DNA of 64,000 nucleotides. It comes from Bosea sp. (in: a-proteobacteria). Lineage in GTDB: Bacteria > Pseudomonadota > Alphaproteobacteria > Rhizobiales > Beijerinckiaceae. The stretch is from contig NZ_JAFKFW010000017.1 of NCBI RefSeq assembly GCF_017308015.1, positions 16,783-80,782 on the forward strand, given 5' to 3'. The translations under genes were made by a program, and so were the position numbers. Below the pieces are notes generated by a model. That model saw only the letters and a program-made list of their open reading frames with translations, was not told where the DNA came from and searched no databases. The number at the start of each line of letters is the position of its first letter. The first letter of the stretch is position 1. Below are positions 5,888-37,349 of the stretch, piece by piece.

Positions 5888-6769
5888 TTAAATCCCGAGA
5901 TATCCTCGGAGCAGACCTGCGACTGCGTCAACGCTGGCTTTCCCGGCAGTATTCGCGGCGCCCTTTATCCATTCGCCCAGCGCCGTGCCAAACTGGCCTT
6001 TCTTGATGTCCCCCTGATCCTTGGCGAGCGCGAGGGGGAGGGCGGCAATTTGCTCTGCATGAACCCCGGCCTCGCCGAGAGCCTTGGTTAGGCCGTCGAA
6101 ATCGCCCGCGACCAAACCAGAGTTGTTGGCCTGCGATAGGTCGCCGCCCACGTTCGAGTTGATGACGTTTTGCCCGCCGTAGATGTAAGTGATCACTTGC
6201 TTCTGTACCTCTTCGGCGCCGACCTTTTCTAAGGGGTCGTCCGAGTCTCCAACCTGTTCTTGAAGTTCCAAGGCCAGCCTGAGAATGCGGTTCCTGACTG
6301 TGTCACAGATGCCGATCACCCTGCCAACGGGCAGCGAACGCCATGCTCGGTTTAAGCCGTAGCCGGCGATAATTTTCTCCGCATACATTGCAACCAAGTC
6401 TGCAGGCCAAGGGCTAGAAAGCTCGTCGCTCCCAGACTTGGCCAACGACTCGATCTCAGCGATCGGCTCCGGCATGCGAATGTACCGGATCAAATCTCGG
6501 TGTCGCTCAGATAAAAGCCCAAGCGGAATGGGTTGGTTGCGAATCTGCGCTCCGAGTGGCCCGACCATCAATCCGAAGGAGTTGGCGCCGAATATCCGAT
6601 ACTCCGGCAACGCGTCGTCGGAACTATAGCCGTCGAGTTCGGCTCCGCACCACTCCTTCAGCGTGCCGTTTTTCAGTCTTGAAGCAAGGACCAGGCATTT
6701 CCGCAGCAACACGGGCAACCCGATGTCACTAGCCGTCGCTCCCTCGATTATTTCATTGAGCAGTTTCAC
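5888..6769 (-). CDS. AbiTii-domain protein (putative abortive infection/defence moron)
   Basis: LL.EII..A......L..LLRKC.VLA.RL....L..W...EL.GY...LP.YR N-terminus; antisense to phage operons; visibly lower GC. Confidence 0.8.
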   Translation of the reverse strand: MKLLNEIIEGATASDIGLPVLLRKCLVLASRLKNGTLKEWCGAELDGYSSDDALPEYRIFGANSFGLMVGPLGAQIRNQPIPLGLLSERHRDLIRYIRMPEPIAEIESLAKSGSDELSSPWPADLVAMYAEKIIAGYGLNRAWRSLPVGRVIGICDTVRNRILRLALELQEQVGDSDDPLEKVGAEEVQKQVITYIYGGQNVINSNVGGDLSQANNSGLVAGDFDGLTKALGEAGVHAEQIAALPLALAKDQGDIKKGQFGTALGEWIKGAANTAGKASVDAVAGLLRGYLGI

Positions 6770-7094
6770 GGTTCGCCCCGGGCGATGCGCATCTACCAGC
6801 TATCGACACGCAGTTGACGAACGGCGGCAAGCCCTGGTGCCTGCTTTTCCCCAAATGTTCGCTTGAGCTGGCCAAATGCTACCTCTCTATGATCTTGTAG
6901 CAATGCAAGATTTATCCCCCCGATAGGGTGGTTGTCGGACTGCCATTTTGCGGGCATGCATTGGTCATCGTCGCGAAACGTGTCGGTGACGACACCCGCC
7001 CGGCCAGCGCCAAGCGCGAACGGCCCATGCGACGGTGCAAATAAGAGCGACGAGCGGTCAAGATTTGCCAGTTCTGGATGAGACGCCGCCAGCG

Positions 7095-7126
7095 AGCCCG
7101 GCCCCAGCGGTCGGGCTTTGTCGTTT
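7095..7126 (+). terminator. Rho-independent terminator candidate before the late region
   Basis: 9-bp stem AGCCCGGCC/GGTCGGGCT followed by TTGTCGTTT. Confidence 0.55.
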
Positions 7127-7187
7127 CAGGCCACAATGAGCGGTCGCCGCGATAGGGTAGCGCCTCTGATGTGATCGTTGTCAGTTG

Positions 7188-7382
7188 TCAGCTCACCTCG
7201 GAGTCCTGAACCGCGACGATCTCCGCAACGATCTGCTGAAGCCGACGGGTCGCCTCTTTAAGAGCTGTTCCCTCGTCCGCAGGGTCTTTCTCCGATGGGC
7301 CCAAGGCTTTGAGCGCGTCGCGGGACACCTTATGAGCCGCGCCAAACAATTTGCGGAGATTGTCGTTACGAAGCCGTTCCAT
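7188..7382 (-). CDS. Small hypothetical protein (64 aa)
   Basis: C-terminal part of ORF 7188..7916 from MERLRNDN; helical character. Confidence 0.45.
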   Translation of the reverse strand: MERLRNDNLRKLFGAAHKVSRDALKALGPSEKDPADEGTALKEATRRLQQIVAEIVAVQDSEVS

Positions 7383-7545
7383 GGCCGAGAGAATACGCGC
7401 GGTGTATGGATGCGGCCCTGTCTTATGACATCGCCCACCACATTCGCGATGGCGAGCGTTCCCTGCAGGAAGAACGCTCTCCCTGCTGCCCGCAGGGAAC
7501 AACGGTCGGCGGTCCCCGTTGCGGTTGCATTCGGAGGAATGCGCC

Positions 7546-7791
7546 ATGGCAAAAGGACAACCTGAATCCCTCGCTACCTTCGCCGCGACCGCCAGGAACG
7601 ACGGAAAGAAGCCCCAGGACATCGGGCTTGAGGCGACCCCTGAAACGAAGGGCCTCCCGACTGATCCAAAGGAGAAAGCCGACGCGGCGACAAAGGTGCT
7701 GCGAGAAGGCGTTCTCAAAAAGGACCAGGGCGCCGAAAAAGCAGTGGACGCGCTACCGGACCGCACGCGGGATGCCAAACCTCGCAGATAA
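7546..7791 (+). CDS. Small hydrophilic hypothetical protein
   Basis: GGAGG RBS, ATG at 7546. Confidence 0.65.
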   Translation: MAKGQPESLATFAATARNDGKKPQDIGLEATPETKGLPTDPKEKADAATKVLREGVLKKDQGAEKAVDALPDRTRDAKPRR

Positions 7792-26090: not shown

Positions 26091-27169
26091 TGGCTCTACC
26101 CACCAGCACCGTTGATGCCTGGCATACGAAGTTCAAGGCATTCTATCGCGGCATTGTTGGCGCCGTCGTCGACATTTGGCCGAATACCTGGGCCGTCACG
26201 GCGAAGGTGCTCGCCCTCCTAGCGCGCGAGGTCGATCTTCGCTTGGCGGTGCTCTATCGGCAGGTGCTGGTCTCGACATCGGATGGCGACTATGTGCGCC
26301 GCCACGCTTTCGAGTACGGAATCGCCAGTCGCGCGGCTGGTCGTGCGAGTGGTGACCTCGTCGTGACCGCCCTCGGCGCGGGGACGATTCCGGAGGGCAT
26401 CGCATTCCAGCGGGATGACGGCGCTCTCTTCCTGACGAACGCTTCGGCAATCGCCACGGCGGGGCCAGTGACGCTGTCGGTGCAAGCCGATGTCGCCGGG
26501 CTGGCCGGCAACACCCCGGACGGGGCGACCCTGACCCTGATCTCGACATCGCCGGTCGCGCTCAGCGGTGGCATTGGAGCAGTTTCAGGTGGCCTCGGCG
26601 GCGGGACCGCGACTGAGGATGTTGAAGACCTCCGCCAGCGCGTGCTCCAGCGGAAGCGGAACCCGCCTCAGGGTGGTTCGGCAAGCGATTGGGAGCGGTG
26701 GGCTCGGGAAGTGCCAGGCGTCGATCGGGTTTTCGTGGACAGCTTCTCGAACACCGACCGCAGGGTCTGGATCGCAGTCACCTTTGAGGACCGCGTGAAT
26801 GGCATTCCGAACTCCGGCGACGTCGCCGCGGTTCAGGCTCACCTCGAGGATCCGAACCTTCGCCCAGTCACCGCGCGCGTCACGGTAGTCCCTCCGACGG
26901 CAGTCCCTGTGAACATCGCGGCAACTGGGGTCGAGCCACTGACCACGCAAGTTGAGGCGGCGATTAAGGCTGAGCTCGCGGCTGTGTTCGCGGAACGCAT
27001 GTTGGTGGCTCGTCCGAACCATCCTTTCGTCCTGCCCCGCGCTTGGCTCAGCGAAGCGATTTCCCGTGCGATCGGCGAGGATCGTCACACGCTCACGGCA
27101 CCGGCAACCGACCTGACTTTCACCACGCCCGGGGAGCTTCCTGTCCTCGGCAATGTGACGCTGACCTGA
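26090..27169 (+). CDS. Baseplate J-like wedge protein (Mu gp47)
   Basis: G..GN...G, GG...E..E.LR.RV, PP.GGS..DW..WA..VPGV motifs. Confidence 0.92.
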   Translation: MALPTSTVDAWHTKFKAFYRGIVGAVVDIWPNTWAVTAKVLALLAREVDLRLAVLYRQVLVSTSDGDYVRRHAFEYGIASRAAGRASGDLVVTALGAGTIPEGIAFQRDDGALFLTNASAIATAGPVTLSVQADVAGLAGNTPDGATLTLISTSPVALSGGIGAVSGGLGGGTATEDVEDLRQRVLQRKRNPPQGGSASDWERWAREVPGVDRVFVDSFSNTDRRVWIAVTFEDRVNGIPNSGDVAAVQAHLEDPNLRPVTARVTVVPPTAVPVNIAATGVEPLTTQVEAAIKAELAAVFAERMLVARPNHPFVLPRAWLSEAISRAIGEDRHTLTAPATDLTFTTPGELPVLGNVTLT

Positions 27170-27172
27170 CCG

Positions 27173-27877
27173 ATGCCGACCACATGGCCTTGCGATGCGC
27201 TCCCAACAGAAGCGCCATCGATCAATGACGTCCTGTCGAACCCTACCGGCGACAGCCTGCTGCCTCAGGTGTTGGCGAGTGCGCCGCGAGGGGAGGCGTG
27301 GGGCACCGATGAAGCCGGCGACGGCAATGGAGCCTCTCCGGTCCAGCTGAAATTCTGGCGTGGCATTTCGGCCTGCTTGGCCGAGATGTTCCGGTGGTCG
27401 TTCGAGGTGACGACTCAGGCCTTCCCAACGGCAATCACGTTCAGCCTGGCGGATTGGGAGTATGAGTTGGGGCTGCCAGACCCTTGCGGCTCCGACGCTC
27501 TTGGGTTCGAGGCAAGGAAGGCGGCCGTCCGCGCGAAGCTGGCTGCGCAAGGTGGATCGTCGCCCGGCTACTTCATCTGCGTCGCGCGAGCGGCTGGCTA
27601 CGACATCACGATCGATGAGCCGACCGGCTTCGAGCTTGGCATGGGCGGCTCGGAGCTTGGCGACGATAGCGACGAGTTGACCGCCACGAATCCTGAGACC
27701 GTCTGGATTGTCCGCCCTGAAGGCTACCGCATGTTCGAGTTCGAGCTCGGCCCTGGCGGCGGAGAGCTTGGCCCCGGCGGGACTCGCCTCGTGAGCTACA
27801 CCGATATCGCCGGCTTGGAATGCCTCCTGCGCGGAATCGCGCCGGTCCACACGCAGCTCGTCTTCGCTTCAGCCTGA
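27173..27877 (+). CDS. YmfQ/DUF2313 (Mu gp48-like) baseplate protein
   Basis: PRG.AW, P.......L.DWE..LGLPD.C, LEC....P.HT motifs. Confidence 0.88.
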   Translation: MPTTWPCDALPTEAPSINDVLSNPTGDSLLPQVLASAPRGEAWGTDEAGDGNGASPVQLKFWRGISACLAEMFRWSFEVTTQAFPTAITFSLADWEYELGLPDPCGSDALGFEARKAAVRAKLAAQGGSSPGYFICVARAAGYDITIDEPTGFELGMGGSELGDDSDELTATNPETVWIVRPEGYRMFEFELGPGGGELGPGGTRLVSYTDIAGLECLLRGIAPVHTQLVFASA

Positions 27878-27887
27878 GAGATCGATC

Positions 27888-28829
27888 ATGCAGTATATCG
27901 AGCCCGTCGGTGCGCAGGGGCCGGCGAACGACTTCGGCCGGGATTATGTTGACAAGAACGCAGGTCTTGGCATCGCCGGTTCATTCTTGGCGGCTGATGT
28001 GCCTGAGCACGTTCAGATCGAGATCCTGAACGCTATCGCAGGCTCCGGGCAAACACCCGCTGGCGCGAACCTGAAGCAGCTCGCCTACGCCATTCAGAAG
28101 GGCATGAACTATGCCGCGGCTACCGGAGGAGCGAATGCTTGGGCGATCACACTATCGCTCGCCCCGCTGGCCTACGCCGCTGGGCTGGAGGTCAATGTCG
28201 TCGTTCCCGGCACCAACACCAGCACGTCGGTCACAGCGAACATCAACAGCCTCGGCGTTAAGCCGGTCAAGAAGCGTGACGGCACCGATCCCGCGGTTGG
28301 CGATATCGTCGGAGGCTCAGCCTATCCGACGATCTACGATGGCACGAACATCCGCATTCTGACGCCGCTCCCGAGCGACATCGCGGCCCTGGTCGGTGTC
28401 AACAAGAGCCCCTTCAACGTCGCGCAGCTCAGCTTCACGACACGCACAGCGCTCAGCGGTACGGGTTTCGTCAGCTTCCAGAGCGGCTCGTATACGAAGA
28501 AGAGCGCCACCAGCGATCTTGTCGTCCGAGCCAGCACCAACCTATTCTCGACCGCAACCTATGCTGCCGCGATCATGCGCCTTGTCTTCGGTGCGACGAC
28601 CCTGGAAGCCGTCGCGGGCAATTCGAACACGACGAGCAACCTGCCCAGCCCGACGACAGAGCGGAAGATCAGCGGCGTCGCGGCCGGCTCTGTGGCGTGG
28701 GCGATTTCGTTCGGCCGGAACGATGCGAACGCTTGGTCAAGCATCGTGAACCCGACTACGGCTGGCGATGGCGGCAACATGCCGGTGTCGACCGCGACGT
28801 CGCTTGTGATCCAAGAAATCGAGCCCTGA
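27888..28829 (+). CDS. Tail fibre protein
   Basis: N-terminal EI..I..G..P....QL..AI anchor; beta-rich C-terminus; follows gp48. Confidence 0.8.
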   Translation: MQYIEPVGAQGPANDFGRDYVDKNAGLGIAGSFLAADVPEHVQIEILNAIAGSGQTPAGANLKQLAYAIQKGMNYAAATGGANAWAITLSLAPLAYAAGLEVNVVVPGTNTSTSVTANINSLGVKPVKKRDGTDPAVGDIVGGSAYPTIYDGTNIRILTPLPSDIAALVGVNKSPFNVAQLSFTTRTALSGTGFVSFQSGSYTKKSATSDLVVRASTNLFSTATYAAAIMRLVFGATTLEAVAGNSNTTSNLPSPTTERKISGVAAGSVAWAISFGRNDANAWSSIVNPTTAGDGGNMPVSTATSLVIQEIEP

Positions 28830-28835
28830 TGGGCG

Positions 28836-29228
28836 CTATACAGCGATCTTCGACCGACCCAGCACTGCGAGCAGAGCATTCCGCCCGGCTTTTAGGGCCG
28901 GGTAGAGGAGCCGCGCTGCGGTCGGGCTGCGGAATATCGCGAAGTTAATCCGATTGATCAGGCCTGACGGGCTGGAAAGCATCGTCATGGCGTGAACGGC
29001 ATCGGCGCCGTGGAACTGCTTCTCGCCAACCTCGACGACGAAGCCCTCGTTCACGTCGAGACCTTTCGCCTTGAGCTTGGCCACCTCGTCAGGGGCTGTG
29101 CGCAAGTCGACCAGTTCCACCTTGCCGGCTGCCTCGCGCAAGCGAACCAGCCGCACATAGGCGGAGCATGCGGGGCATTCCCCGTCATAGAGAATGCGGA
29201 TGCCCTCAGGTGTAGATGTGGGGGCCAT
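28836..29228 (-). CDS. DCC1-like thiol-disulfide oxidoreductase (DUF393)
   Basis: ILYDGECPAC CxxC motif, G.DA, LYP.L..GR motifs. Confidence 0.9.
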   Translation of the reverse strand: MAPTSTPEGIRILYDGECPACSAYVRLVRLREAAGKVELVDLRTAPDEVAKLKAKGLDVNEGFVVEVGEKQFHGADAVHAMTMLSSPSGLINRINFAIFRSPTAARLLYPALKAGRNALLAVLGRSKIAV

Positions 29229-31050
29229 AGAACTCTAGTTCCTCGCCGGTCTTCGGGTCGGTCGTAACAAGCACGATCGAATATGGTTTCGGGCCCGCTT
29301 CGACCTCGTAGTAATATCGATCTCCAACCCATTTCCCTGGCAGGTCCATGAGTGGGCCCGACTGGCCCTTCCAATGTGAGGAGCGGTAGCGGAATTTCCA
29401 AGTCGCGCCGTCCAGACCGACTTGATCAATCGTCAGGTACGGCTGCTTGGGCGTCTCCAGCTTGAGGATCGGCCGTGCCGCCAGATAGGTCCCATCGGAT
29501 TTGAGGATAGCGCGCAGCGCTCTGTGTGCGTCGAAGGGCATCGGACTCGCCGGATAGGCGGGGTAGATCATGAACCGGCCCCACAGGCGCAGTTCCGAAT
29601 TCGCCGGCATCTGCTCGATGAAAACTCGCGTCGCCTCAAGTCGCTGGCGATATTCAGCAGCGGGGGCGTTGTCCGCGCCGTAATAAATTAGGTTATCCGG
29701 GAGCTGCGTGATGCGGCTTTCGCCGTTCTCGCAACGATAAAATAGCGGGTCGCTTGTCGTCGCTTTGCGGCTGATGGGGCTGTAGATCGCTTTGAGTTCG
29801 TCTCGCGATTTCCCTGTTACATTTACCCAGCGCCCACCGGATATGTCGCATGTCGGAGTGCGTATAGAGACGTCGCCATAAGGGTAGGCATAGGGCAGAT
29901 GCTGTGTGTAGGGCCGCGTGGCGTAAGTGCCCGCATACATATCGAAATTGTCGAACGGGTAGGCCAAGTCCGTGCGTCCACGCTGGCCGACGATCTGTAG
30001 GCAGTAGTACCCGAGGAAGATCGCCCCCAAGACGAGCGGGAACGTTGGAAGCGATCCTGATCGGACGGATACCGGTGGCGATCGGCGGAACAACCAGTCC
30101 CAATCGATGAAAAGTACCGCAAGCGGTATCCACCACGGGTTCCAGACAGTCATGATCTCCCGCAGAGCGATGACGCCGCCAGCGAAGACCAGCGCTTCGA
30201 AAGCCCGCAGCAATGGGCGCCGCGGGAATAGGATCGCAGTAGCCGGCAAGAGCTGCATGACCATGTGGCCGAGCAGGGCGCCAATCCATAGAACCGGGTG
30301 GCTCCAGATCAACTCGACAAACCACGGAATGACGAACTCTTTCGGCGCCGTCCAGGTGATGGCGAGCGCGTTCCGAAGGTTGTCCGAGAAAATGTACCAG
30401 AAGCCGCCCTGAACGGCCTTCGTGAAGAAAGCGCCGAAATAGAAGAGAGCGACCGCTGCCTGCGCAAGCAGAACGGGCCAGGCGAGCAGATAAGTCTGGT
30501 GCGGCTCGATGCGGCCGAGCGGGTAGCGAGGCAGAACACGCCGCACGAGGCGGTCGAGCGATATGGACGCGTCGGCGCGGCCAAACATGATCGCCAAGCC
30601 TGCGAGGAAGATGACGTTGTACGGAGCGCTCCAGAAGGCTCCACGACCAGCATCCAAACTGGCGAGCATAGTCGTGGTGAGAACCGAGACGATCATCGCT
30701 GGGCGCGTGAGCAACCCGATGATCGCTAGCAACGTCGAAAAGAGTGCTAGGCGATCGATCACGCCCCAAGCGTCTGGTCCCGGCATCCAAAGCCGCAGCA
30801 GACCAAACCGATAGAACGGAATGTCGCCGAGGCTTTTTGCGTAAGCGACAACATCGCCGCCCGCCATCGCCTCTCTGACGATGAAGTAGACCCAGAGCGT
30901 CGAAGAAAAGATGGCAATGCGCGCGATGCCTATGGAAAGCGTCGCCGCCATCGGCTGCGATGAGTCGAGCTGCATGACGTGAACGAGAAGGCGCTTCGGC
31001 CAGCTCGCAGCATCTCTGATCTTCGCTGATCGTAGTACGCCAGTGTTCAT
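29206..31050 (-). CDS. HTTM-like polytopic membrane protein with a large soluble C-terminal domain
   Basis: IGLLTR, SISLDR, YFGAFFTK, YPFDNFDMY motifs; about 8-9 hydrophobic segments. Confidence 0.7.
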   Translation of the reverse strand: MNTGVLRSAKIRDAASWPKRLLVHVMQLDSSQPMAATLSIGIARIAIFSSTLWVYFIVREAMAGGDVVAYAKSLGDIPFYRFGLLRLWMPGPDAWGVIDRLALFSTLLAIIGLLTRPAMIVSVLTTTMLASLDAGRGAFWSAPYNVIFLAGLAIMFGRADASISLDRLVRRVLPRYPLGRIEPHQTYLLAWPVLLAQAAVALFYFGAFFTKAVQGGFWYIFSDNLRNALAITWTAPKEFVIPWFVELIWSHPVLWIGALLGHMVMQLLPATAILFPRRPLLRAFEALVFAGGVIALREIMTVWNPWWIPLAVLFIDWDWLFRRSPPVSVRSGSLPTFPLVLGAIFLGYYCLQIVGQRGRTDLAYPFDNFDMYAGTYATRPYTQHLPYAYPYGDVSIRTPTCDISGGRWVNVTGKSRDELKAIYSPISRKATTSDPLFYRCENGESRITQLPDNLIYYGADNAPAAEYRQRLEATRVFIEQMPANSELRLWGRFMIYPAYPASPMPFDAHRALRAILKSDGTYLAARPILKLETPKQPYLTIDQVGLDGATWKFRYRSSHWKGQSGPLMDLPGKWVGDRYYYEVEAGPKPYSIVLVTTDPKTGEELEFYGPHIYT

Positions 31051-31135
31051 TCCAACCGCTTCCTCAGGCCCGCGGCGCCATTAGCGCCCGCTGACGGTCG
31101 TTCGCAAGATCAAACCTGTTCCGAAAGGACCACTT

Positions 31136-31672
31136 ATGCCCGACACCGCTGATGCTAGTGCAGCTGTCGACCAGCGCACGACCAAGCGCGTTTCTGCCAA
31201 CTGGTCCGTGGCGATCATGCAGTCGGCAGGCGTCAGCTACGTCGCTGAAGCACGCGACGAGGCTGGCGAGCTCCTCGGCTACGACATCGATCCGCCGCTA
31301 ACACAGAGCGCGTACGACGTGGTGGCGGAGGAGGTGCAGCGGGCCCAATTGCTTGGCTACGCGGCGGCGGCTCGCTACCGCAAGGAGACCGGCGGCATCA
31401 GCGTGGCCGGTCAGCCGATCGCGACCGATCGGGAGAGCCAGGCGCTCATCTCCGGCGCCTTCGCTCTGGTCCAGCAGCAGCCGCAGACGGTGATCCGCTT
31501 CAAGACGCCGGGCGGGTTCGTCACGCTCGATGCCGCCCAGATGTCGGCCATCGCCATCGCGGTCGCCCAGCACGTCCAGGCCTGTTTCGCGCTCGAGGCC
31601 GATGTCGCGGCGGACATTACATCCGGCGAGATCATCACCCCGGCCGAGATCGACGCCGCATTCGCCGCCTGA
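31136..31672 (+). CDS. DUF4376 tail-fibre assembly-like protein
   Basis: L..YA...R...E.GG..V.G..I.TDR.SQ.LI.GA, FK...GF..L.A..M..A..V..HVQACF motif. Confidence 0.85.
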   Translation: MPDTADASAAVDQRTTKRVSANWSVAIMQSAGVSYVAEARDEAGELLGYDIDPPLTQSAYDVVAEEVQRAQLLGYAAAARYRKETGGISVAGQPIATDRESQALISGAFALVQQQPQTVIRFKTPGGFVTLDAAQMSAIAIAVAQHVQACFALEADVAADITSGEIITPAEIDAAFAA

Positions 31673-31713
31673 TCGCTCCCCCGCCTCCACCAGACGTCTG
31701 AAAGGACCCTTCC

Positions 31714-32115
31714 ATGGCCGGCTCCGCCTCCGACTATCTCGAAAAGAAACTCCTCGACCATTCGCTTGGCGTTGCCGCCTACACGATGCCGGCGAACGTG
31801 TTTCTCGCCCTGTTCACGGCCGATCCCGGCGAGGCCGGGCCCGGCACCGAGGTCGCCGGCAATGGCTATGCTCGCCAGTCGACCGCCTTCGCCGCGGCTG
31901 CAGCGGTCGGCGGCGTTATGACCGCGAAGAACTCCGCGGCGAAGACCTTCACGGCTGCGGGCGGCTCCTGGGGCACGATCACGCATTGGGCGCTGTTCGA
32001 TGCGCTGAGCGCAGGCAATATGCTCTGGCATGCGGACCTCACCGCACCTCGCACGATCGGCGACGGGGACCAGTTGACCTTCGCCATCGACGCGCTCGCC
32101 ATCGCGGCCGACTGA
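31714..32115 (+). CDS. Phage structural protein (minor tail/fibre-associated family)
   Basis: SDYLE.KLLD, V.LALFTADPGE.G..EV.G.GYAR, WGTITH...D..GN motifs. Confidence 0.7.
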   Translation: MAGSASDYLEKKLLDHSLGVAAYTMPANVFLALFTADPGEAGPGTEVAGNGYARQSTAFAAAAAVGGVMTAKNSAAKTFTAAGGSWGTITHWALFDALSAGNMLWHADLTAPRTIGDGDQLTFAIDALAIAAD

Positions 32116-32117
32116 TC

Positions 32118-32474
32118 ATGTCGCGCTATGGCGGCTGCGGTGCCGGTCAGACCATTAGCGGCACGATCCCGTTCGTGCCGGGGTCGGAGATCATCCAGCC
32201 GTTCCTGATCGTGGCGGAGGCGACCATCGTCAACATCGCCGGCGGCACGGTGACGGCCGAGGTGCTGGTGTTCGGCGCCGTCGCCTTCAGCCCCGCAGTC
32301 GAAATCGAGGATGCAGCCCCCGCGCCGGAACTCGATCAGCAGCCGCATGGCGTCGTCAGGATCACCGAGGAGCAGACCGCCCTGATCCCCGATGGCGCGC
32401 TGCTGCGCGTGGTCTACGTCCAGGCCGGCGTGACGATGCCGGCTCTCAGCTGGTTGATGAAGAGGACGGTATGA
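32118..32474 (+). CDS. Hypothetical phage protein
   Basis: C-terminal part of ORF 31530..32474 from ATG 32118; ATGA overlap downstream. Confidence 0.6.
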   Translation: MSRYGGCGAGQTISGTIPFVPGSEIIQPFLIVAEATIVNIAGGTVTAEVLVFGAVAFSPAVEIEDAAPAPELDQQPHGVVRITEEQTALIPDGALLRVVYVQAGVTMPALSWLMKRTV

Positions 32475-34966
32475 GCCTGTCGGGACCGCGCATCATAACC
32501 GGGCGCCGCAAACTGCTGAAGGCAGTGCTCGTCGGAATTTCCGGCAATTTCCAGCGTGTCCGCCATCAGGGCGGCGGCGAGGCCAATCTGACCTGCGCGG
32601 CACTCGGCGAGGCTCGCCGGAGGCTGACCGCTTCCGGCGGCGCTGCGCTGGCCTTCGCTGCGTCTGGTGGCGCAGGCTCACCGACGAAATCCGGAGCTGG
32701 TGCTGCAGTACTTTCGACCCTCGCCGGCGGCGGGGCCTTTGCCCGCCGTGGCGCTATCGGTTCGGCAGCTCTGCTGACCGCGGCAGGCGGCATCGCCGCG
32801 GCGCGTCGCCAGGCTTCAGGGGCGGCTTCACTGCTCTCCGCAGCTGCCGGGGCAGCCCGTGCGCAGCGCTTCGCCACTGGCGTGGCCACCCTCACCACCT
32901 TTGGCACGGGTGGTGGGTCCGGCTCCGTCTCCGATCCCATCATCCAGAGCATCAACGCCAACGGCTGGAGCGTTACGACGACGAGCAGCCCGCCGACGAT
33001 GCAGCCCGACGTGGCGCCAAAGTTCCTCTACGCGAGCCGGCAGGGCTTCGACCAGACCGGCGCGGCGAAGACCTATGTTGAGCCTATCGTTCTGACGCAG
33101 CGCCTGCGCCAGCCATATCCAAATCAGGCAAGCTTGACCTCCGATCAGGTCGTGCTCTCCGACTATCTCTATTCGACCGATACGGTCGTCGGTTCGGTCA
33201 CAGGGGCGAGCACGGAGGCCAGCCCGAAGCCGATCGCGAACTGGGCTCGCGTCGATCGCCGTCTGGTGGGCAACAGTTTCCCGAAAGAATGGGCCGAAGT
33301 TCCGGCGTTTCATCGCAATGCCCGAAATGGCGAGCAAGTCGCCTGCGTCGTCTGGACGTGGACCGATGGTACCAACACTGTCACGGCGAAGGTCGGGGTC
33401 TCGGTGGTTTCGGCCGATCCTCTCGATCTCAGCGCGGTCATTGTTTATCGCCCGGCAGCCGACATCGACATCTCGTCGCTGACGAGCGGCCAGATCACCA
33501 TGAACGCCAAGGTCTATCCTTGGATCGGGGATGCTTCCTCGGTGCTCGATAGCTCGGTTGGTTCGGCTAACAGCCGCGAGTTCTGCCCGCAGACCTTCAC
33601 GAAGAACCCGACGCTCTTTGCCGCGCCATACTTCATCTATGTCGATAATGCGCTGGGCAATGACACGACCGGTGTGTGCTCGACGAATGCGGCGACGGCC
33701 GCAGCGACGCCTGCCTTGACGGTACCCGGCGCCATCGTCCGAGCTCGCGCCCAGATGCCGGGCAATCGCATCGATGGGCTGCGCATCAGGATCGTGAATG
33801 CGCAGACGATCAGCGCGGATGTCACCTTCAATACCTACCAAGACAACCACGAAGTCATCATCGAGCCGGCGCCGGGCGTCTCGCAAGCGACAGCGAACAT
33901 CTCGTTCGGTGCGACCGCCAATCGCGCGACACAGCTTCAGTGGCTACGTCTCAAAGGCGTCTCGATGACGCGGGCGGGTCTGTTCGGCCTCACCGGCAAG
34001 ACGACAGGCGCTTCCAAGCTCGTTCTTGAAAATGTCGCGCTTGATGCCGGGTCGCAAAACTCATCGCTGGTCGTGGCTTCGAATTTCGTCGCCTATCTGC
34101 ATGGCGTCACGATCACTAATCCGGCCGCAAATCTGCTGACGGCCGGCACCAGTGAAATCCGCCTGCTGCGCGGTGTCGATTTCGGTACGATGAATGGTGG
34201 CGTCGGGACCTTGGTTGAGCGCTGGCTGATGTTGGGCTGCCTTTTCCGCGGCATCGCAACGACGCGCGGCGCTCGCAGCGACAGCGGGGCCATTGCGGCA
34301 TTCACCAAGTTTCTGGGCTGCGGAGGCAGTGCCGCCATCCTCTCCTATGGCGCGTCTCAGGATGTGTCTGGCGCTGCTTTTGTCCAGAACGTCTGCGAGT
34401 GGGCGAGTGTTACGAGCAACCCGTTCTTCCGGCCCTCGGCGGACGGCGAGACCGGCAATGTCACGCATCTGGTGGTGCATCAAAACACCTTCGCCGGATT
34501 CAACGACTATGGGCGAGGCAATATCCTCTACAACGAGAGCACCGGCGCCAGGACGCACAAACTCTGCTCCTTCGTCGGGAACATCCACGTCCAGATCAAC
34601 ACCAAGCACGATGTCTTCAAGGCTGATGGCACGCGCATCCAGTCGTGGCCCTATGCCTTCGGCGTCGGCTGCGCTGGTGAATTTTCGCAGTTCTTCTCGG
34701 CCGGGGCGCCCGGCTTCGCGCCTGACTTCGGCGGGCTCAACGCCTCGCTCGGCACAAGCAATAGCGTCCGCAACGACCCGTTGTTCACAGCCCCGGCCGC
34801 GACCGCTTCGGGGCCATCGACCGGGGCTGGTGGTGGAGATTACACGCTGCAAGCCGGGTCTCCATGCATCGGCAGGGTGAAGGCTCCTGTTCTGGCCTTC
34901 GACCTCGCTGGCAATGCTCGAAGTGCTACGGCGTCGGCTGCTGGCGCATACGAGAGGGTGGCATGA
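32471..34966 (+). CDS. Large virion appendage/tailspike-like protein with N-terminal 20-aa repeats and a probable beta-helix
   Basis: Gly/Ala repeats at aa ~36-147; beta-rich body; C-terminal GDY.L...SP.IG......D..G..R....GAYE closure. Confidence 0.65.
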   Translation: MSLSGPRIITGRRKLLKAVLVGISGNFQRVRHQGGGEANLTCAALGEARRRLTASGGAALAFAASGGAGSPTKSGAGAAVLSTLAGGGAFARRGAIGSAALLTAAGGIAAARRQASGAASLLSAAAGAARAQRFATGVATLTTFGTGGGSGSVSDPIIQSINANGWSVTTTSSPPTMQPDVAPKFLYASRQGFDQTGAAKTYVEPIVLTQRLRQPYPNQASLTSDQVVLSDYLYSTDTVVGSVTGASTEASPKPIANWARVDRRLVGNSFPKEWAEVPAFHRNARNGEQVACVVWTWTDGTNTVTAKVGVSVVSADPLDLSAVIVYRPAADIDISSLTSGQITMNAKVYPWIGDASSVLDSSVGSANSREFCPQTFTKNPTLFAAPYFIYVDNALGNDTTGVCSTNAATAAATPALTVPGAIVRARAQMPGNRIDGLRIRIVNAQTISADVTFNTYQDNHEVIIEPAPGVSQATANISFGATANRATQLQWLRLKGVSMTRAGLFGLTGKTTGASKLVLENVALDAGSQNSSLVVASNFVAYLHGVTITNPAANLLTAGTSEIRLLRGVDFGTMNGGVGTLVERWLMLGCLFRGIATTRGARSDSGAIAAFTKFLGCGGSAAILSYGASQDVSGAAFVQNVCEWASVTSNPFFRPSADGETGNVTHLVVHQNTFAGFNDYGRGNILYNESTGARTHKLCSFVGNIHVQINTKHDVFKADGTRIQSWPYAFGVGCAGEFSQFFSAGAPGFAPDFGGLNASLGTSNSVRNDPLFTAPAATASGPSTGAGGGDYTLQAGSPCIGRVKAPVLAFDLAGNARSATASAAGAYERVA

Positions 34967-35058: not shown

Positions 35059-35324
35059 GCGAACGCTAACGTTGCGCCATCATACTCACGCAACTCGGCT
35101 TTCGATCGCCTGATTTCCGGTCGAAGCTGGAGGCTCACGGTCGCGTTGCGTAAAAGACCGTCAATTAGACCCGGCTGAGGTGCGGCTTCAGTCGGGTCTT
35201 TTTAGTCCACGTACTTGCGCGATTAACGCAGTCTGCTCGTTTAGCGGGCAGATCCATGGACTCGATCGTTACGCTGCGTTATTGGAATGGTTAGCAAATT
35301 CTAGCGGGGGAGGTGTTAGTGGGC

Positions 35325-35978
35325 ATGGCAATGATTTTTCGCGCTTTGCTGGCCAGTGCCGCAATGGCATTCGCTGGAGCGTTGCCTACGCAGGCAGCAA
35401 TGGTTACCGTCCAGTTCTCAGGGCAAAATTGGGCAGCTCTTTTATCTGGCGGCGGCTATGTGGCAGATGCCACGCCCTTCTCTGGATCAATCACCTACGA
35501 GTCATCCACGCTTGGCGTGCCGTATTCTTCGCAAGGCACGCGATACAATGCTATCACTTCGGGTGCCTTCACCTACGGGGCAGATGTGTATACTGCAGTA
35601 AGTGGCTATATTGACGTCCATAACAGCCCGTCCGGCGGTGGAGCTGATGCTCTATTTTTCGTTCTGTTTGCGAACGGGCCGAGCTTCAATGGAGCAAATC
35701 CCTTTATCTCTTATGTCGCGCTTCGAGATTACACAGGCGTCGCCCTCTCAAGCCAATCTCTCCCAACCACATTCAGCTTGGCCACATTTGGTGGGTCGAA
35801 TGATTTCTCGACTCAATACAATCATACTCCCGTTGGCTCCTCGCACCGTTATGGGACGGTGACAGATTTTGCTGCTGCCGTCCCCGAACCCTCCACCTGG
35901 GCGATGATGCTGGTTGGTTTTGCTGGCCTGGGCTACGCGGGTTATCGGAAGCGCAAGGCTACTCCGATCGCGGCCTGA
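35325..35978 (+). CDS. PEP-CTERM (PEPxxWA) sorting-domain protein
   Basis: Signal peptide ending TQA-A; C-terminal VPEPSTWAMMLVGFAGLGYAGYRKRK. Confidence 0.95.
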   Translation: MAMIFRALLASAAMAFAGALPTQAAMVTVQFSGQNWAALLSGGGYVADATPFSGSITYESSTLGVPYSSQGTRYNAITSGAFTYGADVYTAVSGYIDVHNSPSGGGADALFFVLFANGPSFNGANPFISYVALRDYTGVALSSQSLPTTFSLATFGGSNDFSTQYNHTPVGSSHRYGTVTDFAAAVPEPSTWAMMLVGFAGLGYAGYRKRKATPIAA

Positions 35979-36707: not shown

Positions 36708-37349
36708 ATGGACACGACCGCAATTCAGCGGGCGCTGGTCGCGCTCGGCTATTCGCTTGCCGTCGACGACGTGATGGGGCCGAAGACGCGTGCTGCGTTG
36801 CAGACGTTCCAGCGCGGGTCAGGGCTGGCTGCTGATGGCGTGGTTGGGCCGCTGACAATCTCGGCACTCGATGCGGCCTTGGCGAGGAAGTCGGCCCCCG
36901 CTTCAGCCATCTTCACCTTGCCGCGGACGAAGCGCCGGATCGACGAGATCATAATCCACTGCACTGCGACGCCCGAAGGTCGCGGCGTCTCTGTCGAGAC
37001 GATCCGTGGCTGGCACAAGGCTCAGGGTTGGAAGGACATCGGCTATCACTGGGTCGTGCTGCTCGACGGCACGGTGAAACCTGGCAGGCCTGAGGCTGAG
37101 ATCGGATCTCATGTCGCCGGGCACAACACCGGCACCCTCGGCGTCGTCTACGTCGGCGGTGTGGCGGCCGACGGGAAGACCGCCAAGGACACCCGCACGC
37201 CGGCGCAGCGCGCGGCGCTCCTGTCGCACGTCAAGGCGCTGATCGCCCGCTATCCGACCATCAAGAGGGTCACCGGGCACAACCAGTACGCCAACAAAGC
37301 CTGTCCCAGCTTCGACGTCCGCAAGGACGAGCTCGGCCACCTCATCTGA
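36708..37349 (+). CDS. Endolysin: PG-binding domain plus N-acetylmuramoyl-L-alanine amidase (T7-like)
   Basis: IQ.AL..LGY...D...GP.T..A...FQ; IIIHCTAT, IGYH, H..GHN, GH....KACP.F. Confidence 0.95.
   Translation: MDTTAIQRALVALGYSLAVDDVMGPKTRAALQTFQRGSGLAADGVVGPLTISALDAALARKSAPASAIFTLPRTKRRIDEIIIHCTATPEGRGVSVETIRGWHKAQGWKDIGYHWVVLLDGTVKPGRPEAEIGSHVAGHNTGTLGVVYVGGVAADGKTAKDTRTPAQRAALLSHVKALIARYPTIKRVTGHNQYANKACPSFDVRKDELGHLI

What the first reader, a model, noticed from the sequence alone, without database searches (positions are those of the whole stretch)
28836..31050. HTTM membrane protein plus DCC1 oxidoreductase operon inserted into the tail-fibre locus
Seen: a two-gene antisense cassette (23-bp overlap) separates the tail fibre from its DUF4376 chaperone. 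Gene 1 has HTTM-like motifs, 8-9 TMs and a ~270-aa soluble domain with two Cys. Gene 2 has DGxCxxC. Known: HTTM domains occur in vitamin K-dependent carboxylase-like and SdpB-like proteins, and DCC1-like domains are thioredoxin-fold. Inference: a redox-coupled envelope-modifying enzyme pair. Receptor-modifying morons often sit beside tail fibres, so it may alter the surface structure this phage binds, giving exclusion or lysogenic conversion. I know of no described phage system of this composition.
Basis: partly seen in the sequence, partly recalled or inferred. Interest (0 to 1): 0.72.

Follow-up and report, generated by a model that had tools for sequence, protein, structure and literature searches.

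The report
Prophage vitamin-K-carboxylase-like enzyme pair
A Bosea prophage carries, wedged backwards into its tail-fibre genes, a membrane enzyme folded like the human vitamin-K-dependent carboxylase plus a small thiol-redox partner; the same pair recurs at this spot in other phages and in bacterial polysaccharide gene clusters, so it probably alters the cell surface, though its chemistry is untested.

Summary
Two overlapping minus-strand genes (29206-31050, 614 aa; 28836-29228, 130 aa) sit between the putative tail fibre and the DUF4376 gene of a complete Mu-like-baseplate myovirus prophage in a Bosea genome.

Gene 2 is a Pfam DCC1-like protein with DGECPAC. Gene 1 matches no Pfam, NCBIfam or PHROG model. 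Its AlphaFold model (pLDDT 92) matches only human GGCX in the PDB. A profile alignment puts its family-invariant Lys211 on the GGCX catalytic base Lys218. The GGCX Glu-binding His160 equivalent is Ala here, and the host has no known menaquinone pathway, so it is not a GGCX-type vitamin K carboxylase.

The two genes form a conserved module: DCC1 is adjacent in 12 of 13 independent loci and fused in one relative. In cellular genomes the pair often lies in polysaccharide clusters.

It is a true insertion, because a same-genus prophage has the fibre and DUF4376 genes 3 nt apart. It is not a one-off: IMG/VR contig L048 has the same layout at about 30% identity. The same slot in other prophages holds a sulfotransferase/methyltransferase/C5-epimerase block or an O-acyltransferase.

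The best reading is a lysogenic-conversion moron acting on a surface glycan. That function is inferred, not shown.

The parts
29206..31050 (-). Gene 1, 614 aa: polytopic inner-membrane protein of the HTTM/GGCX structural superfamily. It has a membrane core (about residues 37-355) carrying the family-invariant Lys211, then a 260-aa beta-rich, presumably periplasmic, C-terminal domain with Cys401 and Cys440.
   Evidence: ORF. No Pfam/NCBIfam/PHROG hit. AF2 model pLDDT 92.1, pTM 0.91. Foldseek top 16 PDB hits are all GGCX, E 1.6e-7 to 1.5e-3, and the next hit is E 0.044. hhalign to GGCX: E 6.6e-5, K211 opposite K218. Family of 1514 representatives.
28836..29228 (-). Gene 2, 130 aa: DCC1-like thioredoxin-fold protein with DGECPAC (Cys18, Cys21). 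It has no signal peptide and no TM helix. Its start overlaps the end of gene 1 by 23 bp.
   Evidence: Pfam PF04134 E 9.5e-13, 49.8 bits against cut-off 27.8. Motif and lack of TM. A conserved partner is adjacent in 12 of 13 loci. It is the only DCC1-like gene in the host genome.
31051..31135 (.). 85-bp divergent intergenic region between the start of gene 1 (minus strand) and the start of the DUF4376 gene (plus strand). It is the presumed site of the cassette's own promoter. GAGGAAG lies 10-16 nt upstream of the gene 1 ATG.
   Evidence: Sequence read. No sigma-70 consensus was found, so the promoter is inferred, not shown.
27888..28829 (+). Putative tail fibre, 313 aa, directly after the Mu gp48-like baseplate gene. 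Its stop is 6 nt from the stop of gene 2 (convergent).
   Evidence: Position after gp46/J/gp48. Homologues sit at the same position in other prophages. Only PHROGs of unknown function match.
31136..31672 (+). DUF4376 tail-fibre-associated gene. In a related prophage it follows the fibre gene after 3 nt; here the cassette separates them.
   Evidence: Pfam DUF4376 E 3.8e-21. phrog_10508 'tail fiber protein'. In L023 the fibre is 6570..7670(-) and DUF4376 is 6060..6566(-).
31714..34966 (+). Further receptor-binding genes downstream: Gp80-type fibre protein (31714-32115) and an 831-aa ORF of unknown family (32471-34966). In a second phage (run X7), the stretch up to 32923 travels together with the cassette.
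   Evidence: Pfam Gp80 E 7e-46. X7 contig covers 28260-32923 at about 96% while the baseplate genes match only in patches.

Best explanation
The cassette is a self-contained two-gene moron of a Bosea myovirus-type prophage. Gene 1 is a divergent member of the HTTM / vitamin-K-carboxylase structural superfamily. By homology with GGCX, the conserved Lys211 acts as a general base at the outer (periplasmic) face of the inner membrane, on a membrane quinol. That quinol would be ubiquinol, since the host has no known menaquinone pathway. The 260-aa C-terminal domain would hold the substrate in the periplasm. Gene 2 is its dedicated cytoplasmic CxxC partner. It probably docks at the cytoplasmic loop before the last TM helix (about residues 320-336), which is where one relative has the DCC1 domain fused in, and it probably supplies or resets redox equivalents. 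The pair is most likely transcribed on its own in the lysogen (it is antisense to the late operon). It most likely modifies a surface polysaccharide, or its lipid-linked precursor. That would change the receptor seen by this phage's fibres or by competing phages, giving lysogenic conversion or superinfection exclusion. Shown here: gene structure, insertion, fold, conserved Lys, conserved pairing, and recurrence at the fibre/lysis junction in other phages. Inferred: quinol use, topology, role of DCC1, glycan target and the phenotype.
For: Fold: the only PDB matches are 16 GGCX chains. hhalign E 6.6e-5 pairs K211/K218, R44/R68, G112/G132, R116/R136, W140/W157, S164/S181 and D166/D183 (GGCX sequence verified). 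K211 is invariant in 112 family members. Of 62 relatives, 3 hit Pfam HTTM and 9 hit DoxD.
Pairing: a DCC1 gene is adjacent in 12 of 13 independent loci. P0029 has DCC1 fused after the HTTM core. The host has no other DCC1 or HTTM gene.
Insertion: same-genus prophage L023 has fibre and DUF4376 3 nt apart. None of 40 relatives' genomes has the gene. Cassette GC is 59.9% against 64.2% for the late operon.
Recurrence in phages: IMG/VR L048 has gpP-gp45-gp46-J-gp48-fibre-BNR_4, then convergent DCC1 and a 619-aa family member, at about 30% identity. L046 has the pair next to lysis genes. L042 has DCC1 convergent on a fibre homologue.
Glycan link: neighbours of cellular homologues are enriched in GT1/GT4, epimerase/dehydratase, Asn-synthase and transglutaminase-like genes, and Aureimonas and Hoeflea share a syntenic cluster. 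The same slot in the G021 prophage holds Sulfotransfer_3, a methyltransferase and C5-epim_C between the fibre and the endolysin. In L043/L045 the DCC1 gene is followed by Acyl_transf_3.
Linkage to receptor-binding genes: in run X7 the cassette travels with the fibre C-terminus, DUF4376 and Gp80 while the baseplate genes are diverged.
Expression hint: a 267-nt contig inside gene 1 in a wastewater metatranscriptome, with no real pieces on the structural genes.
Against: No biochemical or phenotypic data exist for any member of this family. The family's near-invariant His142 (101 of 112; it pairs with GGCX His160, which binds the substrate Glu and is needed for carboxylation, PMC12647623) is Ala in the window protein and in its closest relative P0002, so this copy may have altered or reduced activity. 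The host lacks MenB and MqnA/D, so classical vitamin K chemistry cannot apply as such. Global TM-scores to GGCX are only 0.37-0.45, and the hhalign probability is 64%. Only about 4 of 11 cellular loci are clearly polysaccharide clusters; others hold transposases, FTR1/cupredoxin or unrelated genes. No promoter or terminator consensus flanks the cassette. In L046 the pair is co-oriented with the lysis genes, which would fit late rather than lysogenic expression. The RNA evidence is a single short contig from one sample, and DNA carry-over cannot be excluded.
Confidence: 0.5

Rival explanations
1. The pair modifies a protein or peptide rather than a glycan, as the characterised superfamily members do (GGCX on Glu of secreted proteins; MloH on an aspartyl moiety of malonomycin). 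The target could be a host envelope protein, or a phage-encoded secreted protein such as the PEP-CTERM protein encoded 4 kb downstream in the same prophage.
For: All experimentally characterised relatives act on amino-acid side chains (PMC12647623; Law et al. 2018, as cited in bioRxiv 10.64898/2026.08.19.745780). A second moron encoding a secreted PEP-CTERM protein lies at 35313-35978. Several cellular loci have no polysaccharide genes.
Against: The Glu-binding His160 equivalent is Ala. No acidic or Gla-like substrate gene is conserved next to the pair in the 13 loci. The PEP-CTERM gene is absent from L046, L048 and the cellular loci. Glycan genes are the commonest neighbours.
Confidence: 0.2
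2. The cassette acts during lytic growth rather than in the lysogen. It might alter the envelope of the infected cell so that progeny do not re-adsorb to debris (a receptor-masking function), or it might assist lysis or tail-fibre maturation.
For: The cassette always lies between the tail-fibre and lysis modules. In L046 it is co-oriented with, and directly follows, lysis genes. Late transcription must read through the cassette region to reach DUF4376, Gp80 and the lysis genes.
Against: In the window, L048, L042 and L043/L045 it is antisense to the flanking late genes. Tail fibres fold in the cytoplasm, whereas the large domain of gene 1 is predicted to be periplasmic. The metatranscriptome contig lies in gene 1 and none lies on the structural genes.
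Confidence: 0.12
3. The cassette is a non-catalytic membrane protein, or a decaying passenger. It could block DNA injection or act as a defence or exclusion protein without quinone chemistry, or it could be hitch-hiking cellular DNA of no use to the phage.
For: His142 is lost. The prophage carries other defence-type morons, such as AbiTii at 5888-6769. Transposases are frequent neighbours of cellular homologues.
Against: Both reading frames are intact. K211 and all other invariant residues are kept. The DCC1 CxxC is kept. In runs X5 and X6 the cassette pieces show 0 differences over about 2.4 and 1.6 kb, while the flanking DUF4376/Gp80 pieces differ by 2-8%. The same architecture persists at about 30% identity in L048, which argues for long-term selection.
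Confidence: 0.1

Closest known systems
[quoted passage not shown]
   Same: It is the only structural match in the PDB, over the whole length. The same membrane-core motifs align, including the catalytic base (K211 opposite K218) and R68, G132, R136, W157, S181 and D183. The layout is also shared: a membrane core followed by a large extracytoplasmic C-terminal domain.
   Different: Identity is 12-14% and TM-score 0.37-0.45, and there is no hit by sequence profile against the PDB. The Glu-binding His160 is replaced by Ala. The host makes no menaquinone by a known route. There is a dedicated DCC1 partner in place of VKOR. The gene is bacterial and phage-borne.
Bacterial HTTM + DCC1-like pairs and fusions (e.g. 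A0A1G6IBF2 of Melghirimyces thermohalophilus, HTTM 52-289 + DCC1-like 323-431; bioRxiv 10.64898/2026.08.19.745780)
   Same: The domain composition is the same: an HTTM-type membrane core plus a DCC1 CxxC module. In both A0A1G6IBF2 and family member P0029 the DCC1 domain follows the HTTM core. Function is unknown in all cases.
   Different: The window protein belongs to a divergent 600-aa subfamily that the Pfam HTTM model does not detect. It has its own C-terminal beta-rich domain fused on, rather than a separate DUF5819 partner. DCC1 is a separate gene. The location is a prophage tail-fibre locus.
[quoted passage not shown]
   Same: Both are virus-encoded GGCX-superfamily enzymes that keep the K218 equivalent, lack GGCX carboxylase-specific residues, and have an adjacent thiol-redox partner gene. 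The Yasminevirus protein A0A5K0UBG6 is the only BFVD match to the model (E 4.7e-3, prob 1.0).
   Different: Those are eukaryotic giant viruses, the partner is VKOR rather than DCC1, the core is truncated and fused to a desaturase, and the proposed target is lipid. Here the full-length protein has a periplasmic domain and sits in a bacteriophage.
Serotype-converting prophage morons (O-antigen acetyltransferase Oac of Sf6; GtrABC of Shigella and Salmonella phages; from general knowledge)
   Same: They are small accessory cassettes placed beside tail-fibre or tailspike genes, often antisense and expressed in the lysogen, and they change the polysaccharide receptor. In L043/L045 the DCC1 gene is followed by an Acyl_transf_3 gene, the Pfam family to which Oac belongs according to my general knowledge.
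   Different: The enzyme families are entirely different, and no glycan change has been shown for the HTTM-like/DCC1 pair.
MloH, bacterial vitamin K-dependent carboxylase homologue in malonomycin biosynthesis (Law et al. 2018, cited in bioRxiv 10.64898/2026.08.19.745780)
   Same: It is a bacterial HTTM-superfamily enzyme with a fused extra-membrane domain, and it acts on a non-Gla substrate.
   Different: It is encoded in a PKS-NRPS cluster and carboxylates an aspartyl moiety.

Membership tests
Pfam HTTM (PF05090) | Match to the family HMM above the gathering score | tested here: not met
   Gene 1 has no Pfam match even at E=10, and PF05090 finds nothing in the whole host genome. Only 3 of 62 relatives match HTTM (best E 4.2e-6), and 9 match DoxD.
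HTTM / GGCX structural superfamily | Fold of the membrane core and luminal domain as in solved GGCX structures | tested here: met
   The model has pLDDT 92.1. The top 16 Foldseek PDB hits are all GGCX, prob 0.99-1.0, with 664-712 aligned columns, and the next hit is E 0.044. Global TM-score is only 0.37-0.45.
HTTM / GGCX structural superfamily | Conserved core residues, including the catalytic base Lys218 | tested here: met
   hhalign of the family profile against GGCX gives E 6.6e-5 and prob 64%, pairing K211/K218, R44/R68, G112/G132, R116/R136, W140/W157, S164/S181 and D166/D183. K211 is invariant in 112 of 112.
[quoted passage not shown] | Glu-binding residues Asn159/His160/Tyr395, which are needed for carboxylation (PMC12647623) | tested here: not met
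   The His160 column is Ala142 in the window protein, against His in 101 of 112 relatives. Tyr395 and the 374-418 motif could not be aligned.
[quoted passage not shown] | A naphthoquinol (vitamin K or menaquinol) cofactor available in the cell | tested here: not met
   The host genome is rated 100% complete. Its best MenB match is 140.6 bits against a cut-off of 342.7, and it has no MqnA/D (PF02621).
[quoted passage not shown] | Quinol epoxidation coupled to CO2 addition on a substrate carbanion | not testable with these tools
   This needs enzymology.
DCC1-like thiol-disulfide oxidoreductase (PF04134) | HMM match above the cut-off and the DxxCxxC motif at the start of the thioredoxin-like fold | tested here: met
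   Score 49.8 bits against cut-off 27.8, covering 110 of 113 profile positions. DGECPAC is at residues 15-21. Y14, D15, G16, C18 and C21 are invariant in 8 partners.
SdpB/SdpA antimicrobial-peptide maturation pair | Match to the NCBIfam SdpB and SdpA models (recalled from memory to be in NCBIfam) | tested here: not met
   Neither protein has an NCBIfam match at E <= 1.
Prophage moron | Insertion between genes that are adjacent in related phages | tested here: met
   In L023 fibre and DUF4376 are 3 nt apart, while in the window they are 2306 nt apart. None of 40 related genomes has the gene.
Prophage moron | Own promoter and terminator, and expression in the lysogen | tested here: inconclusive
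   No sigma-70-like promoter and no flanking terminator were found. The only transcript evidence is one 267-nt metatranscriptome contig inside gene 1.
Prophage moron | Base composition different from the surrounding phage genes | tested here: met
   GC is 59.9% against 64.2% for the late operon, and GC3 is 0.72-0.75 against 0.77-0.85. The difference is modest.
Serotype-conversion (receptor-modifying) cassette | A demonstrated change of a surface glycan and of phage adsorption | not testable with these tools
   Only contextual support is available: polysaccharide-gene neighbourhoods of cellular homologues and glycan-modifying genes in the same slot of other prophages.

The most novel reading that the evidence does not exclude
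The phage-borne pair is a glycan-directed member of the vitamin-K-carboxylase superfamily. On this reading a ubiquinol- and O2-driven 'strong base' enzyme at the periplasmic face removes the proton alpha to a sugar carboxylate, for example C5-H of a uronic acid in EPS, CPS or O-antigen. This would be chemically analogous to gamma-H abstraction from Glu, and would lead to carboxylation or epimerisation. The cytoplasmic DCC1 protein would act as a built-in 'VKOR' that resets the quinone. Phages would use this chemistry for serotype conversion. The G021 prophage carries a conventional glucuronyl C5-epimerase-like gene in the same slot.
Probability: 0.12. Interest if true: 0.9.

Novelty: new variant of a known kind. 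Interest (0 to 1): 0.62.

Why it matters
HTTM/GGCX-like proteins with DCC1 partners are widespread in bacteria, yet I found no reported substrate for any HTTM+DCC1 pair. A phage-borne copy is a compact, portable two-gene version, and it comes with a ready phenotype to score: adsorption, host range, and LPS or EPS profile of lysogen against deletion. It also recurs at the tail-fibre/lysis junction of distantly related phages, alongside classical glycan-modifying morons, which narrows the likely target to surface polysaccharide. If that holds, it would add a new enzyme class to phage lysogenic conversion. It would also give the first handle on what bacterial GGCX-like enzymes do, in a host that has no menaquinone.

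Tried and rejected
- Pfam, NCBIfam and PHROG scans of gene 1 gave nothing.
- Sequence-profile searches of the PDB with 7 and with 112 family members gave no GGCX hit. The link to GGCX therefore rests on the fold search and on hhalign.
- A PDB sequence search with gene 2 and with the 831-aa ORF gave nothing useful.
- tblastn of gene 1 and of gene 2 against 50,697 INPHARED phages found no match. blastn of 27000-33000 found only a 156-nt piece of a Sinorhizobium phage minor tail gene.
- The IMG/VR pattern scan with the gene 1 alignment found nothing. The phage relatives turned up only through the DCC1 alignment.
- The metagenome scan returned only three short loci and was not followed up.
- Flanking direct or inverted repeats that might mark the insertion: none convincing.
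- Promoter and terminator scan: no signal above shuffles.
- I considered whether the 535-548-aa membrane proteins upstream of DCC1 in L043/L045/L047 belong to the same family. The result is weak for L047 (hhalign prob 44%, E 2.3e-4, with K and Q aligned) and not significant for L043 (E 0.11), so I count them only as possible distant relatives.
- I rejected the idea that G021's sulfotransferase block is merely flanking host DNA, because phage lysis genes 84-93% identical to the window's resume right after it.
- I rejected calling the protein a vitamin K-dependent carboxylase, because the His160 equivalent is lost and the host has no menaquinone pathway.
Full report
**Observation.** The two minus-strand ORFs exist exactly as described: 29206..31050 (614 aa) and 28836..29228 (130 aa), overlapping by 23 bp. 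They lie inside a complete myovirus-type prophage. Upstream on the + strand are terminase gpA, lambda-type portal, S49 protease, capsid E, sheath, tape measure, DNA-circulation protein and a Mu-like baseplate (gpP, gp45, gp46, Baseplate_J, gp48). A 313-aa putative fibre follows (27888-28829); its stop is 6 nt from the stop of gene 2. Downstream on the + strand come DUF4376 (31136-31672), a Gp80-type fibre protein, an 831-aa ORF, a PEP-CTERM gene and an endolysin at 36708-37349. The host is a Bosea species: the SelA encoded in the window is 91% identical to that of Bosea beijingensis.

**Gene 2.** It is a clear DCC1-like protein (PF04134, 49.8 bits against cut-off 27.8) with DGECPAC at residues 15-21 and no hydrophobic segment.

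**Gene 1.** It matches nothing in Pfam, NCBIfam or PHROGs, even at E=10. The word-indexed search found only six relatives, but an exhaustive profile search found 1514 representatives (208 at E<=1e-30).
- With 112 of them as alignment, AlphaFold gives a confident model (pLDDT 92.1, pTM 0.91): a helical membrane core up to residue 355, then a beta-rich 260-aa domain.
- Foldseek against the PDB returns 16 chains of human GGCX as the top 16 hits (E 1.6e-7 to 1.5e-3, about 680 aligned columns). The next hit falls to E 0.044. The earlier low-confidence model gave the same answer. Global TM-scores are modest (0.37-0.45).
- I verified a recalled GGCX sequence against the PDB chains and compared it with the family profile. 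hhalign gives E 6.6e-5 (prob 64%) over 162 columns. [quoted passage not shown] It also pairs R44/R68, G112/G132, R116/R136, W140/W157, S164/S181 and D166/D183.
- Three of 62 relatives hit Pfam HTTM directly and nine hit DoxD.

**Why it is not a GGCX-type carboxylase.**
- The family's near-invariant His142 (101 of 112) pairs with GGCX His160. Together with Asn159 and Tyr395, His160 binds the substrate Glu, and the H160A mutation impairs carboxylation (PMC12647623). The window protein and its closest relative P0002 have Ala there. The phage-borne relatives in L046 and L048 keep His.
- The host genome, rated 100% complete, has no MenB above cut-off and no MqnA/D. Any quinol cofactor would therefore have to be ubiquinol.

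**The two genes are one module.**
- A DCC1-like gene lies directly beside the HTTM-like gene in 12 of 13 independent loci from genomes and metagenomes: same strand in ten, convergent in two. Only the most distant relative lacks it.
- One family member (P0029) has the DCC1 domain fused in just after the membrane core, at the position of the window protein's loop 320-336.
- By homology with GGCX topology (my knowledge: the loop before the last TM helix is cytoplasmic and the C-terminal domain is luminal), DCC1 would sit in the cytoplasm and the beta-rich domain in the periplasm. This is an inference.
- The host has no other DCC1-like gene and no Pfam HTTM gene, so the prophage brings the whole module.

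**It is an insertion.**
- None of 40 related genomes (24 of the same genus) has gene 1.
- In a same-genus prophage (L023) the order is gp46-J-gp48-fibre-DUF4376, with 3 nt between fibre and DUF4376. In the window the two are 2306 nt apart.
- The cassette has lower GC (59.9% against 64.2%) and lower GC3. No flanking repeats mark the junctions.

**It is not a one-off.** Scanning IMG/VR with an alignment of DCC1 partners found seven viral contigs, six of them distinct.
- L048 carries gpP, gp45, gp46, J, gp48, a fibre and a BNR_4 protein on one strand. Then, 3 nt from the BNR_4 stop and convergent, come DCC1 and a 619-aa family member (E 1e-147 to the family HMM). This is the window's architecture at about 30% protein identity.
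- L046 has a 52%-related pair right after lysis genes.
- L042 has DCC1 convergent on a fibre homologue.
- L043/L045/L047 have DCC1 preceded by a 535-548-aa polytopic protein, which is at best a distant relative. In L043/L045 DCC1 is followed by an Acyl_transf_3 O-acyltransferase, and the set lies between an endolysin and a Laminin_G/CBM fibre gene.
- In public runs, a 60-kb contig of a different phage (X7) carries the cassette together with the fibre C-terminus, DUF4376 and Gp80 at about 96%, while its baseplate genes are diverged. In X5 and X6 the cassette pieces are identical while the flanks differ by 2-8%.

**What it may act on.**
- Neighbours of cellular homologues are most often GT1/GT4 glycosyltransferases, NAD-dependent epimerases/dehydratases, Asn-synthase-type amidotransferases and transglutaminase-like proteins. 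Aureimonas leprariae and Hoeflea share a syntenic cluster around the pair. Other loci are unrelated or rich in transposases.
- In the same-genus genome G021, a prophage with a 50%-identical fibre and 84-93%-identical lysis genes has a different cassette in the same slot, also antisense and also 6 nt after the fibre stop. It encodes a sulfotransferase, a methyltransferase and a glucuronyl C5-epimerase-like protein.
- So this junction is a slot for glycan-modifying morons. That is the main reason I favour a surface-polysaccharide target and a lysogenic-conversion or exclusion role.

**Expression.** Evidence is thin. One 267-nt contig (one mismatch) lies inside gene 1 in two files of one wastewater metatranscriptome sample, and there are no genuine pieces on the structural genes. 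No promoter or terminator consensus was found.

**Comparison with what is known.**
- HTTM+DCC1 fusions are on record but uncharacterised, and MloH is a bacterial superfamily member acting in malonomycin synthesis (bioRxiv 10.64898/2026.08.19.745780).
- Giant viruses carry a Lys218-retaining carboxylase-like epoxidase next to VKOR (PMC13486548). The Yasminevirus protein is the only BFVD match to my model, and no phage protein matches.
- INPHARED phages and PHROGs hold no relative.
- Earlier notes of this scan (AI leads, unchecked) report many HTTM+DCC loci, often in glycan operons, and one Rhizobium prophage with HTTM+DCC plus a membrane protein between tail fibres and lysis genes. My L043/L045 result resembles that case.

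**Verdict.** The cassette is a new phage-borne variant of an uncharacterised but widespread bacterial module, and it occupies a recurrent moron slot. The mechanism (quinol-dependent base chemistry on a surface glycan, with DCC1 as cytoplasmic redox partner) is inferred. I put it at about 0.5 overall.

Noticed in passing
window 35313-35978 (+): A PEP-CTERM protein gene (Pfam PEP-CTERM, E 3.6e-7) with markedly low GC (54.8%, GC3 0.545) lies inside the prophage, between the 831-aa tail gene and the endolysin. It is a second, separate moron.
   Followed up: partly
window 5888-6769 (-): An antisense AbiTii-domain gene (E 1.8e-40, GC 57.6%) lies between the replication genes and the terminase. It is probably an abortive-infection moron.
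   Followed up: partly
L022 10332-13450 (genome G021, same genus): A related prophage carries an antisense block of Sulfotransfer_3, Methyltransf_11 and glucuronyl C5-epimerase-like genes, starting 6 nt after its tail-fibre stop and followed by the endolysin. This looks like a candidate glycan-modifying conversion cassette in its own right.
   Followed up: partly
L043 6406-9664 and L045 6406-9711 (IMG/VR): A three-gene antisense set lies between the endolysin and a Laminin_G_3/CBM_5_12 fibre gene: a 535-aa 6-TM protein with no Pfam match, DCC1-like, and an Acyl_transf_3 O-acyltransferase. The 535-aa protein is not significantly related to the window's gene 1.
   Followed up: partly
L033 8599-9738 (Hoeflea sp.) and L032 2753-4375 (Hyphomicrobiaceae MAG): DUF2793 proteins lie close to the HTTM-like/DCC1 pair in cellular loci; the L032 one also has a Peptidase_S74 chaperone domain, which is tail-fibre-like. 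In Hoeflea the DUF2793 gene is directly upstream of the pair, inside a polysaccharide cluster.
   Followed up: no
window 29206-31050, residue 142 of gene 1: The window protein and its closest relative P0002 have Ala where 101 of 112 family members, including the phage-borne L046 and L048 proteins, have His. This His pairs with GGCX His160.
   Followed up: yes
window 32471-34966 (+): The 831-aa ORF after Gp80 has no Pfam, PHROG, NCBIfam or PDB sequence match, and its GC3 (0.74) is lower than its neighbours'. It is probably a tailspike or receptor-binding protein of unknown fold.
   Followed up: partly
window 28260-32923, run X7: A 60.5-kb contig from a 'synthetic metagenome' matches this stretch contiguously at about 96%, but matches the baseplate genes only in short patches. 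This is mosaic exchange of the receptor-binding block together with the cassette.
   Followed up: partly
window 53028-53124 (-): ARAGORN finds a tRNA-Sec gene next to the selA/selB-type genes, which marks the host chromosome beyond the prophage.
   Followed up: no
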